Below are positions 12,449-52,040 of a DNA stretch of 64,000 nt, one piece after another; position 1 is the first letter of the stretch, and every line of letters starts with the position of its first letter. Position numbers and translations under genes: made by a program. Source of the stretch: Ignavibacteriota bacterium (lineage in GTDB: Bacteria; Bacteroidota; Ignavibacteria; UBA10030; BY39); contig QOQV01000005.1 in NCBI GenBank assembly GCA_003327435.1, positions 21,222-85,221 on the forward strand, given 5' to 3'. The notes under the pieces are model-generated. The model was not told the DNA's origin, made no database searches, and saw only the letters and a program-made list of their open reading frames with translations.

Positions 12449-12565
<117 letters not shown>

Positions 12566-12676
12566 ATATAAAAAATCCAAATGAGAAGAGATTCCAAAAA
12601 TCACAAGGAACAAGCTTATCAAAAGTCTGCTTGAGTATAGTGACAGGTAAGAAAGAAAGGGATCAATAAAAATACT

Positions 12677-15700
<3,024 letters not shown>

Positions 15701-15897
15701 AAAAATCTTTATTGATCCACAGATATTCTAAAACCTATCAGGTCTACATCAAGCAGACTTCTGATAAGTTTTGCTCTTGTGAATAATTTGGACTTTTGAG
15801 GTCTACTCCTTTAATGCTTTTGTTCATCTGGCGGTTTACTTATTCAAGTAAACACAGACAACTACTTGCATTTGGAGTAGATTTTCTCTTCTCATTT

Positions 15898-15908
15898 TTC
15901 AAAGAACA
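15898..15908 (-). promoter_or_regulatory. boxA-like antitermination element before 23S
   Basis: TGTTCTTTGAA; near-identical elements at 16685-16695 and 18456-18466. Confidence 0.5.
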
Positions 15909-15921
15909 CTTCTCACTTTTG

Positions 15922-15994
15922 TGGAGCTAACCGGGATCGAACCGGTAACCTCCTGGTTGCAAACCAGGCGCTCTCCCAATTGAGCTATAGCCCC
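15922..15994 (-). tRNA. tRNA-Ala(TGC), CCA not encoded
   Basis: GGGGCTATAGCTCAATTGGGAGAGCGCCTGGTTTGCAACCAGGAGGTTACCGGTTCGATCCCGGTTAGCTCCA folds as a cloverleaf. Confidence 0.97.
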
Positions 15995-16027
15995 ATAGTT
16001 CAGAGGTTTATCGCACCCCTGATAATG

Positions 16028-16101
16028 TGGGCCTGGGTGGAGTTGAACCACCGACCTCACGCTTATCAGGCGTGCGCTCTCACCACCTGAGCTACAGGCC
16101 C
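16028..16101 (-). tRNA. tRNA-Ile(GAT), CCA not encoded
   Basis: GGGCCTGTAGCTCAGGTGGT...CCTGATAAG...GGTTCAACTCCACCCAGGCCCA cloverleaf. Confidence 0.97.
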
Positions 16102-16108
16102 CCTTTTT

Positions 16109-16677
16109 ACTGCATAGTATCTTCTAATTCGGATTATATGGTTCACAACTACCATCTGGAGCACCATACCACTCACATCTACACTTAGGTTTTGAGCCAT
16201 CTGGACAGGTTATCTCACATGAACCAAACAAACAACTGACTTTACAAGAACCTACCGGAACTTTAGTCTCATCAAATTCTGGAGGAACAAGAGTTTTGAA
16301 AAATTCTAAAATTTCGTCTTTTTGTTTTCTGCTTAATTTCTCTAATATTTCACCAACTCGTTTATTGTAAATTACATACTTATCATAATCATTCTCTTTC
16401 ATAGCAACAAATGCAATCACATATGCATTCTTTATACTATCCTTTATCAATTTGAATGATTCCTGCTGATCAAGAAACTTTATAAAATTATTAAAATTCT
16501 CTTCCTGTTGCTTCGAAACTGTCAATCTCACATTCTCAGGTTTAATACTCTGTATTGTTTGACCAATGACCGAGCAACTCATAAAGCATATAATCGATGG
16601 AATAATTATAAAAATTAATCTCATATTAAGTGTCTTGTAGTTTATTTTTCACTCTCCGGTTATATTACCTATGCAGT
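16109..16677. repeat. Inverted repeat bracketing the ITS-embedded ORF
   Basis: actgcatag (16109-16117) and ctatgcagt (16669-16677) are perfect 9-bp reverse complements, extendable by a few pairs on each side with one mismatch or bulge. Confidence 0.7.
16124..16624 (-). CDS. Putative lipoprotein with Cys-rich C-terminus, inside the rRNA internal transcribed spacer
   Basis: 501-bp ATG-TAG ORF in AT-rich DNA; hydrophobic signal peptide ending FMSC (lipobox-like); seven clustered Cys at the C-terminus. Confidence 0.8.
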   Translation of the reverse strand: MRLIFIIIPSIICFMSCSVIGQTIQSIKPENVRLTVSKQQEENFNNFIKFLDQQESFKLIKDSIKNAYVIAFVAMKENDYDKYVIYNKRVGEILEKLSRKQKDEILEFFKTLVPPEFDETKVPVGSCKVSCLFGSCEITCPDGSKPKCRCEWYGAPDGSCEPYNPN

Positions 16678-16796
16678 GAATTATTTAAAAGAACAAATTA
16701 AAAAACTTTTTTATAAGATATAGTGTGTATGCCGCAAACCGAATTTGCTTTGAGGTTCTCGAAGTTGTCATTTCAAACTTACGTTTGAGTATGACT

Positions 16797-18366
<1,570 letters not shown>

Positions 18367-18489
18367 AAAGTTTAAACTCTATAACTTCGAGCCTGATCTC
18401 TTGTTTTTTCAGGTTGATCCTCAAAAACAAATTGATCTTTGGCCATACACACTATTTCAAAGAACTTTCATTTTTAATTTCGGGCTTAT

Positions 18490-50696: not shown

Positions 50697-52040
50697 TTAT
50701 TTTATTCTTTTAATAAGTTTTTTTAGCTCAATTTTCGATTTATGCAGAACCGATTCTTCGTCTATGGACACAAATTCTTTCTTACGATAAACCCATTTAC
50801 CGTCGATCATCACTGAATCAACATTTGCAGGACTTGCTGAATAAACAATAGAGGAATAAATATCATTATCATTATTTCGTAGTAAAGGATTTGAGGTATC
50901 TTCAAGATTTAAAAGAACAATATCAGCTTTCTTACCAGCTTCTATGCTTCCCACTTCGTTTGCGATCCCCAATGCTCGAGCACCATCGATTGTTGCCATC
51001 TGGAAAATTTTTTTAACAGGCATTGCTTTGGGACCGTGAATTGGTTTCTGAATCAATCCTGCAAGTCGCATCTCCTGAAACATATTCAAATTATTATTGC
51101 AAGGAGCTCCATCTGCACCAAGTGAAACTGAAATACCTTCTTTCAGATAAAGTGGAATATTAGCTATGCCTGAACCCAATTTCAGATTTGAACTTGGACA
51201 ATGAGCAATATGTGCTTTTCTGTCGCGCATTATTTTTATTTCTTTTTCACTCAAATGTATACAATGGGCAAGCACAGATTTTTCGGAAATTACACCTAAA
51301 TGATTTAGATACTCGACATTATTCATCTTACATCTTTTCCGAACTGCTTCGAGTTCGCCCCTGTTTTCAGATGCATGAGTATGAAAAAGCATTCCATCAA
51401 AATCCTGCAACATTTCGTGCGCTTCGATCATACATCTATCTGTACAGGAGAGAATGAATCTGGGAGCGGGTGCATACTTTACTCTGCCGTTAAAAGAGTT
51501 ATGATATTTTTCAGCCAGTTCTCTTGTGGATTTTATAGCAGAACTTGTTGGTTCTTTTAGTTTTGAATAAGCGTTGTTAATATCCATCATTGCTTTGCCG
51601 GTAAAAGCGCGGAAGTTAGTTTCGGCGATTGCTTTAATAATTTCTTCGTGATGATTTACGCTTCCCATATCTAGAATTGTTGTGGTTCCGCTTTTAACTA
51701 ACTCGGTGATACCTAACAATGCCGAATAGTAGATAGATTTTTCGTTGTGAGCTGCTTCGAGCGGAAAGATTTTTAACTTGAGCCAATCGAGGAGTTCCAT
51801 ATCTTCAGCCATACCGCGAAAGAGTGTCTGGCAGAGATGGATATGAGTTTGGATAAAGCCGGGGATTGCGATGCAGTTCTTAGCATCAAATATTTGGTAT
51901 TTTTTGTTATCAATGAGATTGAGGTCTCGAGCATTTAGAATTTTTCTAATGTAGTTATCTTCGATTAAGATACCTGCATTTTCGATCAGTTCGGGGTTTG
52001 AGTTTGTGATTATTTTATCTACTAAAATCAGTTTAAGCAT
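50697..52040 (-). CDS. Metal-dependent amidohydrolase (5'-deoxyadenosine / MTA-SAH deaminase family)
   Basis: PGFIQTHIHLCQ, HTHASE, AHCPSSNLKLGSG, GADGAPCNN, GSIEAGKKADIV. Confidence 0.88.
   Translation of the reverse strand: MLKLILVDKIITNSNPELIENAGILIEDNYIRKILNARDLNLIDNKKYQIFDAKNCIAIPGFIQTHIHLCQTLFRGMAEDMELLDWLKLKIFPLEAAHNEKSIYYSALLGITELVKSGTTTILDMGSVNHHEEIIKAIAETNFRAFTGKAMMDINNAYSKLKEPTSSAIKSTRELAEKYHNSFNGRVKYAPAPRFILSCTDRCMIEAHEMLQDFDGMLFHTHASENRGELEAVRKRCKMNNVEYLNHLGVISEKSVLAHCIHLSEKEIKIMRDRKAHIAHCPSSNLKLGSGIANIPLYLKEGISVSLGADGAPCNNNLNMFQEMRLAGLIQKPIHGPKAMPVKKIFQMATIDGARALGIANEVGSIEAGKKADIVLLNLEDTSNPLLRNNDNDIYSSIVYSASPANVDSVMIDGKWVYRKKEFVSIDEESVLHKSKIELKKLIKRIK

What the first reader, a model, noticed from the sequence alone, without database searches (positions are those of the whole stretch)
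16103..16695. Protein-coding gene inside the rRNA operon spacer, closed by an inverted repeat
Seen: between 16S and tRNA-Ile lies an intact 166-aa ORF on the rRNA strand, stretching the ITS to about 1.1 kb. It is bracketed by actgcatag/ctatgcagt, so in the pre-rRNA the ORF would be looped out on a stem that ends 7 nt before the tRNA-Ile 5' end. A boxA-like TGTTCTTTTAA sits just upstream of the stem. No separate promoter, terminator, transposase or nuclease motif was noticed. Established: ORFs in rrn operons are rare and are mainly 23S IVS four-helix-bundle proteins or homing endonucleases; this looks like neither. Inference: an IVS-like cassette in the spacer that uses the strongest promoter in the cell and is released as an mRNA by RNase III/RNase P processing.
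Basis: partly seen in the sequence, partly recalled or inferred. Interest (0 to 1): 0.85.

Follow-up and report, generated by a model that had tools for sequence, protein, structure and literature searches.

The report
Secreted-protein gene inside the rRNA operon
A real, selectively maintained gene for a small exported cysteine-rich protein sits between the 16S rRNA and tRNA-Ile genes of the only ribosomal RNA operon of a hot-spring bacterium, so it is probably transcribed as part of the ribosomal RNA precursor.

Summary
The window carries one rrn operon on the minus strand, in the order 16S, 166-aa ORF, tRNA-Ile, tRNA-Ala, 23S, 5S, with a 1102-nt 16S-23S spacer.

- **Real arrangement.** A second species of the genus has a 56%-identical ORF at the same spot. 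A DNA contig from a public run covers tRNA-Ile, the ORF and the first 20 nt of 16S.
- **Real gene.** dN/dS is about 0.19 (0.10 in the Cys domain). Seven cysteines are invariant across relatives, and the AlphaFold model is confident. It has a signal peptide, a four-helix domain and a small Cys-rich beta domain. No Pfam, PDB, phage or defence match was found.
- **Derived position.** Relatives elsewhere are ordinary chromosomal genes. 26 other same-order genomes have 87-312 nt where this genus has about 700. The insert lies after the 16S processing stem and a native boxA-like motif, 22 nt before tRNA-Ile.
- **Transcription.** The genome's only 23S, 5S and tRNA-Ile(GAT) genes lie downstream. No promoter or terminator was found in between. 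A metatranscriptome contig joins the ORF to tRNA-Ile.
- **The bracketing stem fails.** The 9-bp inverted repeat is marginal by chance, absent in the sister species, not predicted by folding, and short for RNase III.

Verdict: a cellular gene embedded in a linked rrn operon, most likely co-transcribed with pre-rRNA. It is not an IVS-like cassette. Transcript ends, translation and function are untested.

The parts
18455..18465 (-). Leader boxA-like motif (GTTCTTTGAAA), 89 nt upstream of 16S. It is directly followed by the 5' strand of the 16S processing stem.
16803..18366 (-). 16S rRNA gene, the only copy in the assembly.
16721..16781 (-). Spacer nt 22-82, predicted to pair with the 16S leader. 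This is the 3' strand of the 16S processing stem and the likely RNase III substrate. It ends in the order-wide conserved GCACACTAT motif.
   Evidence: RNAduplex; motif conservation. The cleavage itself is inferred.
16684..16694 (-). Spacer boxA-like motif (GTTCTTTTAAA). It is native to the spacer and also present in ORF-less relatives.
16669..16677 (-).
   Evidence: I5. Not conserved and not predicted to pair.
16625..16683 (-). 59-nt A-rich 5' untranslated stretch between boxA and the ATG. It has no Shine-Dalgarno motif next to the start.
16124..16624 (-). ORF of 166 aa. It has a hydrophobic signal peptide with a possible lipobox Cys17, a four-helix domain (residues 38-109) and a Cys-rich four-strand beta domain (residues 126-162).
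16139..16246 (-). Cys-rich C-terminal domain (residues 127-162). Seven cysteines are invariant in 10 relatives, and dN/dS is 0.096 against the sister species.
16109..16117 (-). Downstream arm of the 9-nt inverted repeat, 7 nt before tRNA-Ile.
16027..16101 (-). tRNA-Ile(GAT), the only one in the genome. It begins 22 nt after the ORF stop codon, and its 5' end is the expected RNase P site.
   Evidence: RNase P cleavage is inferred from general knowledge.
15921..15994 (-). tRNA-Ala(TGC), the only one in the genome.
15897..15907 (-). Third boxA-like motif (GTTCTTTGAAA), ahead of the 23S processing stem.
12676..15700 (-). 23S rRNA gene, the only copy, downstream of the ORF.
12449..12565 (-). 5S rRNA gene, the only copy.

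Best explanation
**What it is.** An ordinary cellular gene for a small exported, cysteine-rich protein of an unnamed, rare family. It became lodged in the 16S-tRNA-Ile spacer of the single rrn operon in the ancestor of this genus and has been kept there by purifying selection.

**How it most likely works.**
1. RNA polymerase starts at the rrn promoter and passes the leader boxA-like motif (inferred).
2. It transcribes 16S, the spacer boxA-like motif, the ORF, tRNA-Ile, tRNA-Ala, 23S and 5S as one precursor (inferred).
3. 16S is cut out at the leader-spacer stem, which ends about 100 nt upstream of the start codon (stem predicted; cut inferred).
4. RNase P cuts at the tRNA-Ile 5' end, 22 nt after the stop codon (inferred).
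5. This leaves a fragment of about 620 nt holding boxA, a 59-nt A-rich leader and the ORF, which serves as a monocistronic mRNA (inferred).
6. It is translated by the Shine-Dalgarno-independent initiation that is typical of this genome (inferred).
7. The product is exported, and perhaps lipid-anchored at Cys17, to the cell envelope (inferred from sequence).

The gene's RNA would therefore be made in step with rRNA synthesis.

**What is shown and what is not.** Shown: the position, conservation, selection, protein fold confidence, absence of detected signals, and an RNA-library contig joining the ORF to tRNA-Ile. Inferred: the transcript start, the processing cuts, translation, and the protein's function, which is unknown.

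**My odds.** A functional protein gene, about 0.85. Read-through from the rrn promoter as the main source of its RNA, about 0.7. The whole chain, about 0.55.
For: **Arrangement is real.**
- The same order, 16S-ORF-tRNA-Ile-tRNA-Ala-23S, is found in the same-genus genome G001.
- Upstream synteny with G001 is kept.
- DNA run X1 has a 772-nt contig over 16051-16822.

**Selection.**
- Across 165 aligned codons, differences at codon positions 1/2/3 are 40/35/79.
- pN is 0.234 against pS 0.644, giving dN/dS 0.19 overall and 0.096 in the Cys domain.
- All 3 population variants inside the ORF are at third codon positions: 2 synonymous and 1 M15I.

**Protein family.**
- 4 relatives at E<=1e-3 among 17 candidates in the 5.8-billion-protein index.
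- 88 clusters at E<=1e-3, 28 at E<=1e-10 and 12 at E<=1e-30 among 1.84 billion representatives.
- 7 Cys are invariant in 10 sequences.
- AlphaFold mean pLDDT is 85 and pTM 0.75.

**Position is derived.**
- Homologues in the 9 other loci are not in rrn operons.
- 26 other same-order genomes have 16S-to-tRNA-Ile spacers of 87-312 nt, against 702 and 690 nt in this genus.
- A sister genus has a 130-nt spacer with the same boxA-like motif.

**Transcription must pass here.**
- The assembly (98.6% complete) has one 16S, one 23S, one 5S, one tRNA-Ile(GAT) and one tRNA-Ala(TGC). All but 16S lie downstream of the ORF.
- No minus-strand promoter-like or terminator-like site lies between 16S and the ORF.
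- Only 22 nt separate the stop codon from tRNA-Ile.

**Insert spares the processing signals.** Spacer nt 22-82 pair with the leader, and the insert lies downstream of that stem and of the boxA-like motif.

**RNA libraries.**
- Run X5 has a 610-nt contig over 16051-16660. It bridges the tRNA-Ile/ORF junction, with 51 nt on the tRNA side.
- X8 (same study) and X9 (a second study) hold ORF pieces.

**Start context.** It is A-rich, like other genes here; only 6 of 31 crude genes have an SD-like 4-mer.
Against: - There is no transcript-start or end mapping. Contigs cannot show starts, ends, strand or level, and the RNA libraries may carry DNA. I could not lay a silent control stretch.
- The promoter scan only knows sigma-70-type consensus. 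The Bacteroidota-type -7 motif TAnnTTTG is at chance level in the window (99 found, 96 expected), so it cannot exclude or show an internal promoter.
- The two species differ in translation signals. G001 has GGAGG 8 nt before its ATG and the window has none.
- The mean unpaired probability around the start codon is only 0.40.
- A processed RNA with a 5' monophosphate is usually short-lived (general knowledge).
- Nothing shows that the protein is made.
- dS is saturated (1.47), so the dN/dS value is rough.
Confidence: 0.55

Rival explanations
1. **Split or dual-promoter operon.** A promoter inside the spacer, overlapping or just downstream of the boxA-like motif, drives ORF-tRNA-Ile-tRNA-Ala-23S-5S. 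The ORF would then be the first gene of a second transcription unit, with or without read-through from 16S.
For: - The T-rich stretch before the boxA-like motif resembles the Bacteroidota -7 box. It is TAATTTG here, one base short, and a perfect TAATTTTG in the ORF-less sister genus G006.
- A TATAAC hexamer is shared by both species between boxA and the ATG.
- Split rRNA regions with separate transcripts exist. In Borrelia burgdorferi there are three rRNA-region transcripts (PMC3037291, abstract seen in the listing).
Against: - No sigma-70-like site was found on that strand in the spacer.
- TAnnTTTG is at chance frequency.
- The spacing between the candidate hexamers differs by 8 nt between the two species (read).
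- There is no terminator after 16S.
- The same motifs occur in relatives whose spacer is only about 130 nt, where they are best read as boxA.
Confidence: 0.2
2. **First reader's model.** An IVS-like, once-mobile cassette is bracketed by an inverted repeat. The stem loops the ORF out of the pre-rRNA and is cut by RNase III.
For: - The 9-nt perfect repeat sits exactly in the two short flanks, and 23 of 2000 shuffles reach it.
- The ORF-less sister genus has a weak 4-bp hairpin (TACA-GTTC-TGTA) just before tRNA-Ile.
- G001 has an 8-nt repeat overlapping its start and stop codons (I16).
Against: - The G001 repeat has a different sequence and place and is at chance level: 317 of 2000 shuffles reach its length, and 1803 of 2000 reach its energy.
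- The window's stem has under 0.2 probability in the partition function. A different long-range pair (spacer nt 58-64 with 671-677) is predicted instead, and none is predicted in G001.
- It is single-copy in the genome.
- There is no transposase, nuclease or intron signal.
- The family is chromosomal elsewhere.
- 9 bp is short for RNase III (recalled).
Confidence: 0.07
3. **Transcribed passenger that is not translated.** The ORF is a relic carried along in the spacer and has no present protein function.
For: - The S23p ORF of the Coxiella 23S IVS is reported as probably not synthesised (PMC4990558, abstract seen in the listing).
- The window copy has no SD next to its start.
- The window copy has lost the eighth cysteine that most relatives have.
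Against: - dN/dS is 0.19 over a divergence with saturated synonymous sites.
- Both species keep intact frames of 166 and 172 aa.
- The Cys domain is nearly unchanged (7.0 nonsynonymous against 12.0 synonymous differences, Nei-Gojobori counts).
- All 3 population variants are at third codon positions.
Confidence: 0.08
4. **Assembly artefact.** The ORF was wrongly joined into the rrn operon.
For: rRNA operons are common break and mis-join points in metagenome assemblies (general knowledge).
Against: - Two separately assembled genomes share the arrangement.
- A separate contig from run X1 covers 16051-16822, though only 20 nt lie on the 16S side, below the tool's 31-nt bridging rule.
- The spacer's first roughly 120 nt align with those of G001 and run straight into the ORF leader. 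Their predicted pairing with the 16S leader was computed for the window only.
Confidence: 0.01

Closest known systems
23S rRNA intervening sequences (IVS) carrying an S23p ORF, e.g. Coxiella burnetii helix 45 (PMC4990558, abstract in the listing); Leptospira and others recalled
   Same: An ORF on the rRNA strand lies inside an rrn transcription unit and is removed from the precursor by processing.
   Different: - IVSs sit inside 23S helices and are excised at a long stem by RNase III, which fragments the 23S.
- They encode a four-helix-bundle S23p protein, are regarded as selfish, and the protein is probably not made.
- Here the site is the 16S-tRNA spacer and no conserved stem exists.
- The protein is an exported Cys-rich protein with chromosomal relatives and is under purifying selection.
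Homing-endonuclease ORFs in group I introns or insertion sequences of rRNA genes (CPR bacteria PMC11270868; cyanobacteria PMC1995217; both seen only as abstracts in the listing)
   Same: A protein is encoded within the rRNA precursor.
   Different: - No intron or other Rfam family matches the spacer.
- No nuclease domain was found.
- The insert lies in the spacer, not inside an rRNA gene.
Unlinked or split rRNA gene regions with protein genes between 16S and 23S (Borrelia burgdorferi, PMC3037291, abstract in the listing; Brewer et al., bioRxiv 10.1101/705046, passages read)
   Same: Protein-coding DNA lies between 16S and 23S.
   Different: - Those spacers exceed 1500 bp, and in Borrelia the rRNA genes are transcribed as separate units.
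- Here the spacer is 1102 nt, 'linked' by Brewer's 1500-bp rule though far above their mean of 418.7 +/- 169.7 bp.
- The operon keeps all its signals, and no terminator or promoter was detected.
Spacer tRNA genes, the normal passengers of the 16S-23S spacer
   Same: A useful RNA is carried in the spacer and freed by the precursor's processing nucleases. The ORF would use the RNase P cut of its neighbour, tRNA-Ile, as its 3' end.
   Different: The passenger here is an mRNA, not a structured stable RNA.
Secreted Cys-rich proteins with sorting signals: IPTL-CTERM (TIGR04174) and 'midcut-by-XrtH' (NF033207); 'bacteriocin fulvocin C-related protein' as an Atlas lead
   Same: - A remote relative, P0021, carries an IPTL-CTERM signal (23.2 bits, cutoff 20.5).
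- P0021 also has a sub-threshold midcut-by-XrtH match over its Cys domain (25.1 bits, cutoff 45).
- The window protein's nearest Atlas feature clusters score 0.83-0.84, and one is named fulvocin C-related.
   Different: - The window protein itself matches no NCBIfam or Pfam model above threshold.
- Atlas scores under 0.9 are leads only.
- No PDB fold match was found for the whole protein or the Cys domain: 0 of 44 and 0 of 12 hits at E<=1e-3.

Membership tests
23S rRNA IVS with S23p ORF | Located inside a 23S rRNA helix (helix 25 or 45) | tested here: not met
   The ORF lies between the 16S 3' end (16803) and tRNA-Ile (16101). 23S is matched end to end at 12676-15700.
23S rRNA IVS with S23p ORF | The ORF encodes the S23p four-helix-bundle protein family | tested here: not met
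   Pfam scan at E<=10 gave only ABC2_membrane_3, T4_baseplate and VAPB_antitox, all below their cutoffs. The family name is recalled from Pfam and from the abstract of PMC4990558.
23S rRNA IVS with S23p ORF | A conserved long flanking stem that is the RNase III substrate | tested here: not met
   The stem is 9 bp, absent in G001, and has under 0.2 pairing probability.
Group I intron / homing endonuclease insertion | Intron ribozyme core | tested here: not met
   No Rfam family matched 16090-16810 at E<=1. Nothing besides rRNA and tRNA passed gathering thresholds in the window.
Group I intron / homing endonuclease insertion | LAGLIDADG, GIY-YIG, HNH or similar nuclease domain | tested here: not met
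Unlinked rRNA genes (Brewer et al.) | 16S-23S distance above 1500 bp | tested here: not met
   The distance is 1102 nt. The criterion was read.
Transposable element / MITE in the spacer | Transposase, terminal inverted repeats with target-site duplication, and multiple copies | tested here: not met
   No transposase domain was found. The spacer is single-copy in the genome. No direct repeat flanks the arms (read).
Co-transcribed member of the rrn operon | Same strand, with no terminator or promoter between it and the neighbouring rRNA and tRNA genes | tested here: met
   (sigma-70-type consensus only), and the 22-nt gap to tRNA-Ile.
Co-transcribed member of the rrn operon | One RNA molecule spanning 16S, the ORF and tRNA-Ile | tested here: inconclusive
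   An RNA-library contig joins the ORF and tRNA-Ile (X5, 16051-16660). Contigs do not prove a single transcript, and DNA carry-over was not controlled.
Exported protein / lipoprotein | N-terminal signal peptide with a lipobox cysteine | tested here: inconclusive
   - The N-terminus is hydrophobic and modelled at pLDDT below 50 for residues 1-23.
- A Cys lies at the end of the hydrophobic stretch in the window, G001 and G046, but not in the other aligned relatives whose N-terminus is present and complete.
- No signal-peptide predictor was available. FMSC and SFNC are poor lipoboxes (my reading).
Unnamed helical + Cys-rich-domain family (this protein's own family) | A helical domain with the QxE-NF motif, followed by C-x3-C-x4-C-x3-C-x7-C-x-C-x9-C | tested here: met
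   Alignments A3 and A4 and the profile search.

The most novel reading that the evidence does not exclude
A non-selfish cellular gene has no promoter of its own. Its mRNA is carved out of the ribosomal RNA precursor by the same cuts that mature 16S rRNA and tRNA-Ile. An envelope protein is therefore made in fixed step with ribosome synthesis in a bacterium that has a single rrn operon. This arrangement has been held by selection since before two species diverged to saturated synonymous distance.

A bolder side reading has low odds, about 0.05. The family may have a recurrent tie to rRNA genes, because a metagenome contig (L020) shows two tandem paralogues ending 30 nt before a 5S rRNA gene.
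Probability: 0.45. Interest if true: 0.75.

Novelty: new variant of a known kind. Interest (0 to 1): 0.6.

Why it matters
- **A test of textbook assumptions.** rrn operons are taken to hold only stable RNAs. The polymerase there runs in an antiterminated, fast mode that is uncoupled from ribosomes. A conserved, selected protein gene in a linked spacer would show that an mRNA can be produced and used from that context. It would give a natural system for asking how translation starts on a processed pre-rRNA fragment.
- **A regulatory consequence.** The protein's supply would follow growth-rate and stringent control without any regulator of its own.
- **Practical points.**
  - Spacers of this kind lengthen 16S-ITS-23S amplicons.
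  - The deposited gene call is truncated to 133 aa (P0001).
  - The protein family has no name, no Pfam model and no structural relative.

Tried and rejected
**Function searches that gave nothing usable**
- Pfam and NCBIfam gave only sub-threshold hits.
- PHROGs and PADLOC gave 0 families each.
- A PDB sequence profile search gave 9 hits, all E>=0.23.
- Foldseek against PDB gave 0 of 44 hits at E<=1e-3 for the whole model and 0 of 12 for the Cys domain.
- The Atlas structure rows all have TM<=0.38.
- The 'fulvocin C-related' name is kept only as a lead. A literature search with 'fulvocin' listed no paper holding that word among the 8 shown.

**Promoter hunting**
- The TAnnTTTG count is at chance level.
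- The one spacer match (16774-16781) is part of a CAAAC-GTAA-GTTTG hairpin or of the 16S stem, so I dropped it.

**RNA runs**
- I looked for an RNA contig bridging the 16S/spacer junction and for cover of 16680-16787 and 15708-16031 in X5, X8 and X9. None is listed.
- The X5 contig stops at 16660 and the X8 contig at 16101. These come from a single study, so I make no claim about RNA ends.
- In X1 the depth is 41.5 on 15653-15976 and 22.6 on the ORF contig. The tool says summed depths are not copy numbers, so I make no claim of a second, ORF-less copy.
- Joints that skip 699-1113 nt between 16S and tRNA-Ile or 23S have sides under 31 nt and unknown letters between them. I read them as other organisms' short spacers.

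**Weak protein matches**
- The matches in G049, G009 and G006 (E 0.003-0.008) were not treated as family members.

**L020 and the 5S gene**
- L020 is a 2.9-kb metagenome contig. It departs from its near relative L016 right after the first paralogue, so it may be chimeric. I keep it only as something noticed.

**Literature**
- Seven searches did not list a paper describing a conserved cellular protein gene inside a linked bacterial 16S-23S spacer.
- This covers only the held library and my search terms.
- I did not ask for supplements, which are closed.
- Brewer et al.'s supplementary datasets of spacer lengths could hold similar cases.

Full report
**1. What is in the sequence**

The window holds one rRNA operon on the minus strand:

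| Feature | Coordinates |
|---|---|
| 16S | 16803-18366 |
| tRNA-Ile(GAT) | 16027-16101 |
| tRNA-Ala(TGC) | 15921-15994 |
| 23S | 12676-15700 |
| 5S | 12449-12565 |

- Between 16S and tRNA-Ile lies an intact ATG-started ORF, 16124-16624 (-), 166 aa.
- The stop codon ends 22 nt before tRNA-Ile.
- The 16S-23S distance is 1102 nt.
- The ORF's G+C is 32%, against 34% for the window and 33.9% for the genome.

**2. It is not an assembly error**

- The assembly has 2.63 Mb in 23 contigs and is 98.6% complete. The operon lies in the interior of a 197.6-kb contig.
- A second species of the same genus (G001) has the same order: 16S, then a 172-aa ORF, then tRNA-Ile, tRNA-Ala and 23S.
- The genes upstream of the operon are syntenic at 69-78% nucleotide identity. 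The G001 contig ends at the start of 16S.
- In a public DNA run, a 772-nt contig covers 16051-16822 with 5 differences. Only 20 of its letters lie in 16S, below the tool's 31-letter bridging rule.
- The stretch is held, at least in part, by 12 run rows from 8 studies, labelled hot-spring or microbial-mat metagenomes. I laid four of them.

**3. It is a real gene under selection**

| Region compared (window vs G001) | Identity |
|---|---|
| 16S | 99.2% (1551 of 1564) |
| tRNA-Ile to 23S stretch | 95.2% |
| 16S end to ORF start | 83.5% |
| ORF, nucleotides | 68.5% |
| ORF, amino acids | 56% |

All figures are; the amino-acid identity is also shown.

- The ORF's divergence resembles that of the surrounding protein genes, at 69-78%.
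- The 165 aligned codons differ at positions 1/2/3 in 40/35/79 cases.
- pN is 0.234 and pS 0.644. dN/dS is 0.19 overall, 0.14 in the signal-peptide part, 0.17 in the middle and 0.096 in the Cys domain.
- Synonymous sites are saturated (dS 1.47), so the ratio is rough. The direction is still clear.
- The three variants inside the ORF that the run contigs show are all at third codon positions: two synonymous, and one M15I in the hydrophobic N-terminus.

**4. The protein**

- The family is small.
  - 4 relatives at E<=1e-3 among 17 candidates in the word-indexed search.
  - 88 clusters at E<=1e-3 among 1.84 billion representatives, of which 28 are at 1e-10 or better and 12 at 1e-30 or better.
  - 3 of 401 sampled genomes of the phylum, the window's own included.
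- Ten aligned members share seven invariant cysteines in the pattern C-x3-C-x4-C-x3-C-x7-C-x-C-x9-C. They also share a QxE-NF motif at the start of the helical part.
- AlphaFold2 with that alignment gives mean pLDDT 85 and pTM 0.75.
  - The N-terminus (1-23) is unmodelled.
  - There is one strand, then four helices (38-109), then a four-stranded Cys-rich beta domain (126-162).
  - The Cys domain alone gives pLDDT 83.8.
- Neither model has a PDB fold match at E<=1e-3. The profile has no PDB sequence relative.
- No Pfam, NCBIfam, PHROG or PADLOC family passes threshold.
- The hydrophobic N-terminus, followed in three members by a Cys, points to export and perhaps lipid anchoring.
- Remote relatives support an extracytoplasmic location.
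  - Some have the two domains in the reverse order behind a signal peptide (P0032, P0038, P0039, P0041).
  - Others end in a hydrophobic anchor. Of the 8 relatives scanned, 1 (P0021) passes the IPTL-CTERM model.
- What the protein does is unknown. A language-model neighbour cluster named 'bacteriocin fulvocin C-related' scores 0.83, below the level that means anything, and is only a lead.

**5. Its place in the spacer is derived, and it spares the operon's signals**

- Homologues in the other loci are not in rrn operons. Their record titles name Chitinophagales, Kapabacteria, Kryptonia/Kryptoniota and a bin called 'Bacterium HR20'; the rest are untitled metagenome contigs.
- I fetched 30 tRNA-Ile loci from the same order.
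  - The two of this genus have 702 and 690 nt between 16S and tRNA-Ile.
  - 26 others have 87-312 nt.
  - In 2 (L067, L076) no 16S end was found upstream.
- The sister-genus genome G006 has 130 nt there. These include the conserved GCACACTAT motif, a T-rich run, TGTTCTTTGAAG, and 29 nt up to tRNA-Ile.
- So the boxA-like motif is native, and the ORF was inserted between it and tRNA-Ile.
- RNAduplex pairs spacer nt 22-82 (16721-16781) with the 16S leader, directly after the leader's own boxA-like motif. This is the usual 16S processing stem. The insert begins downstream of it.
- The motif GTTCTTTKAAA occurs three times in the operon: in the leader, before the ORF, and before 23S. The whole window has 4, against 0.40 expected.

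**6. How its RNA is probably made**

- The genome has one copy each of 16S, 23S and 5S, one tRNA-Ile(GAT) and one tRNA-Ala(TGC). 46 tRNA genes were found.
- Every 23S, 5S and tRNA-Ile(GAT) molecule of the cell must therefore come from polymerases that have crossed the ORF or started within or just before it.
- No sigma-70-like promoter and no terminator-like hairpin lies on that strand between 16S and the ORF.
  - The two promoter-like hits inside the ORF are not conserved in G001 (read).
  - The regional count is at shuffle level.
- That scan does not cover Bacteroidota-type promoters, and their -7 motif is uninformative here.
- In an RNA library, a 610-nt contig (X5) runs from inside tRNA-Ile across the whole ORF to 16660.
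- A second run of that study and a run of another study hold ORF pieces.
- This fits co-transcription with tRNA-Ile. It does not prove it, because contigs do not show single molecules and DNA carry-over was not controlled.
- The start codon sits in an A-rich context without a Shine-Dalgarno motif. That is normal for this genome, where 6 of 31 crude genes have an SD-like 4-mer. G001's copy does have GGAGG 8 nt upstream.
- My reading is one precursor. 16S is removed at the leader-spacer stem, and RNase P cuts 22 nt after the stop codon. A fragment of about 620 nt is left as the mRNA. The cuts and the translation are inferred.

**7. The bracketing stem**

- Between the two flanks of the window (178 nt upstream, 25 nt downstream), a 9-nt perfect complement is reached by 23 of 2000 shuffles. 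Its duplex energy (-14.2 kcal/mol) is reached by 88 of 2000. The shuffles preserved mononucleotide content only.
- In G001 the best complement is 8 nt, of another sequence and overlapping the start and stop codons. It is reached by 317 of 2000 shuffles. Its energy is worse than that of most shuffles.
A different 7-bp long-range helix (nt 58-64 with 671-677) is predicted at about 0.95. G001 shows no long-range pairing of the flanks.
- The stem is therefore a real repeat of doubtful meaning. I do not build the mechanism on it.

**8. Comparison with what is known**

- **23S IVS elements.**
  - They lie inside 23S helices, are excised at long stems, and carry an S23p ORF that is probably not expressed in Coxiella (PMC4990558, abstract from the listing).
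  - The location, the protein family and the stem were each tested here and not met.
- **Intron or insertion-borne homing endonucleases** (PMC11270868 and PMC1995217, abstracts from the same listing). No ribozyme and no nuclease was found.
- **Unlinked rRNA genes.**
  - Brewer et al. call genes unlinked above 1500 bp. They report a mean linked spacer of 418.7 +/- 169.7 bp (bioRxiv 10.1101/705046, passages read).
  - At 1102 nt this spacer is 'linked', but about four standard deviations long.
- **Borrelia burgdorferi.**
  - It has a long 16S-23S gap and three separate rRNA-region transcripts (PMC3037291, abstract from the listing).
  - That the gap holds protein genes is my recollection.
- **Novelty.**
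  - None of my seven literature searches listed a conserved cellular gene in a linked bacterial spacer.
  - That is a limited search of a limited library. Supplements were closed and I did not ask for them.
  - I therefore rate this a new variant of a known kind (ORFs within rRNA transcription units), not a new category.

**9. Verdict**

- Best explanation: a selected gene for an exported Cys-rich protein, embedded in and most likely co-transcribed with the single rrn operon. Confidence is 0.55 for the whole chain.
- Rivals:
  - an internal promoter, 0.2;
  - an untranslated passenger, 0.08;
  - an IVS-like cassette, 0.07;
  - a misassembly, 0.01.
- Interest is 0.6. The arrangement is unusual and makes translation from a pre-rRNA context directly testable. 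Transcript ends, translation and protein function remain open.

Noticed in passing
L020:1-1000: A 2.9-kb metagenome contig carries two tandem paralogues of this protein family. The second ends 30 nt before a 5S rRNA gene (748-864) on the same strand, followed by gatB. Its near relative L016 diverges right after the first paralogue and has no rRNA within 3 kb, so L020 may be chimeric or a second rRNA-adjacent case.
   Followed up: partly
window 12449-18366 versus L005/L010 and L049: The two species share 99.2% of 16S and 95.2% of the tRNA-Ile-to-23S stretch, while flanking protein genes are only 69-78% identical at the DNA level. The rrn operon, non-coding spacer parts included, is far more conserved than the rest of the genome. 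The ORF inside it diverges like an ordinary gene.
   Followed up: partly
window 16124-16525 (P0001): The deposited gene call for this ORF is a 133-aa protein that starts at an internal TTG (codon 34) and lacks the signal peptide. The alignment with G001 and dN/dS of 0.14 in the first 30 columns support the ATG at 16624.
   Followed up: yes
window 12676-15700: The 23S gene spans 3025 nt against a 2925-position Rfam model. Relatives (L010, L032) show a similar excess within the 5' part. The place and nature of the extra roughly 100 nt were not examined.
   Followed up: no
L034/L026 (G007:C69:1-1719): A contig start with the last 74 nt of 16S is followed after about 70 nt by tRNA-Ala(CGC) and then an SRP RNA, with no tRNA-Ile or 23S. 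This is either an unusual arrangement or a mis-join.
   Followed up: no
window 50908-50918 (-): A fourth exact match to the boxA-like pattern GTTCTTTKAAA lies outside the rRNA operon.
   Followed up: no
proteins P0032, P0038, P0039, P0041 and P0021, P0025, P0027, P0030: Remote relatives have the Cys-rich domain before the helical domain (reverse order). Others add a C-terminal hydrophobic anchor with an IPTL-CTERM-like motif. The two-domain pair seems to be a mobile module of surface proteins.
   Followed up: partly
L057, L075, L082 (spacers of other same-order genomes): The few long 16S-tRNA-Ile spacers among relatives (192, 210 and 312 nt) are filled with short tandem repeats or a tRNA-like piece, not ORFs.
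   Followed up: no
window 16102-16802, spacer nt 58-64 and 671-677: Folding predicts a strong 7-bp long-range helix (AATTCGG / CCGAATT, probability about 0.95) joining the 16S-stem region to the ORF's last codons. It is not seen in G001.
   Followed up: partly
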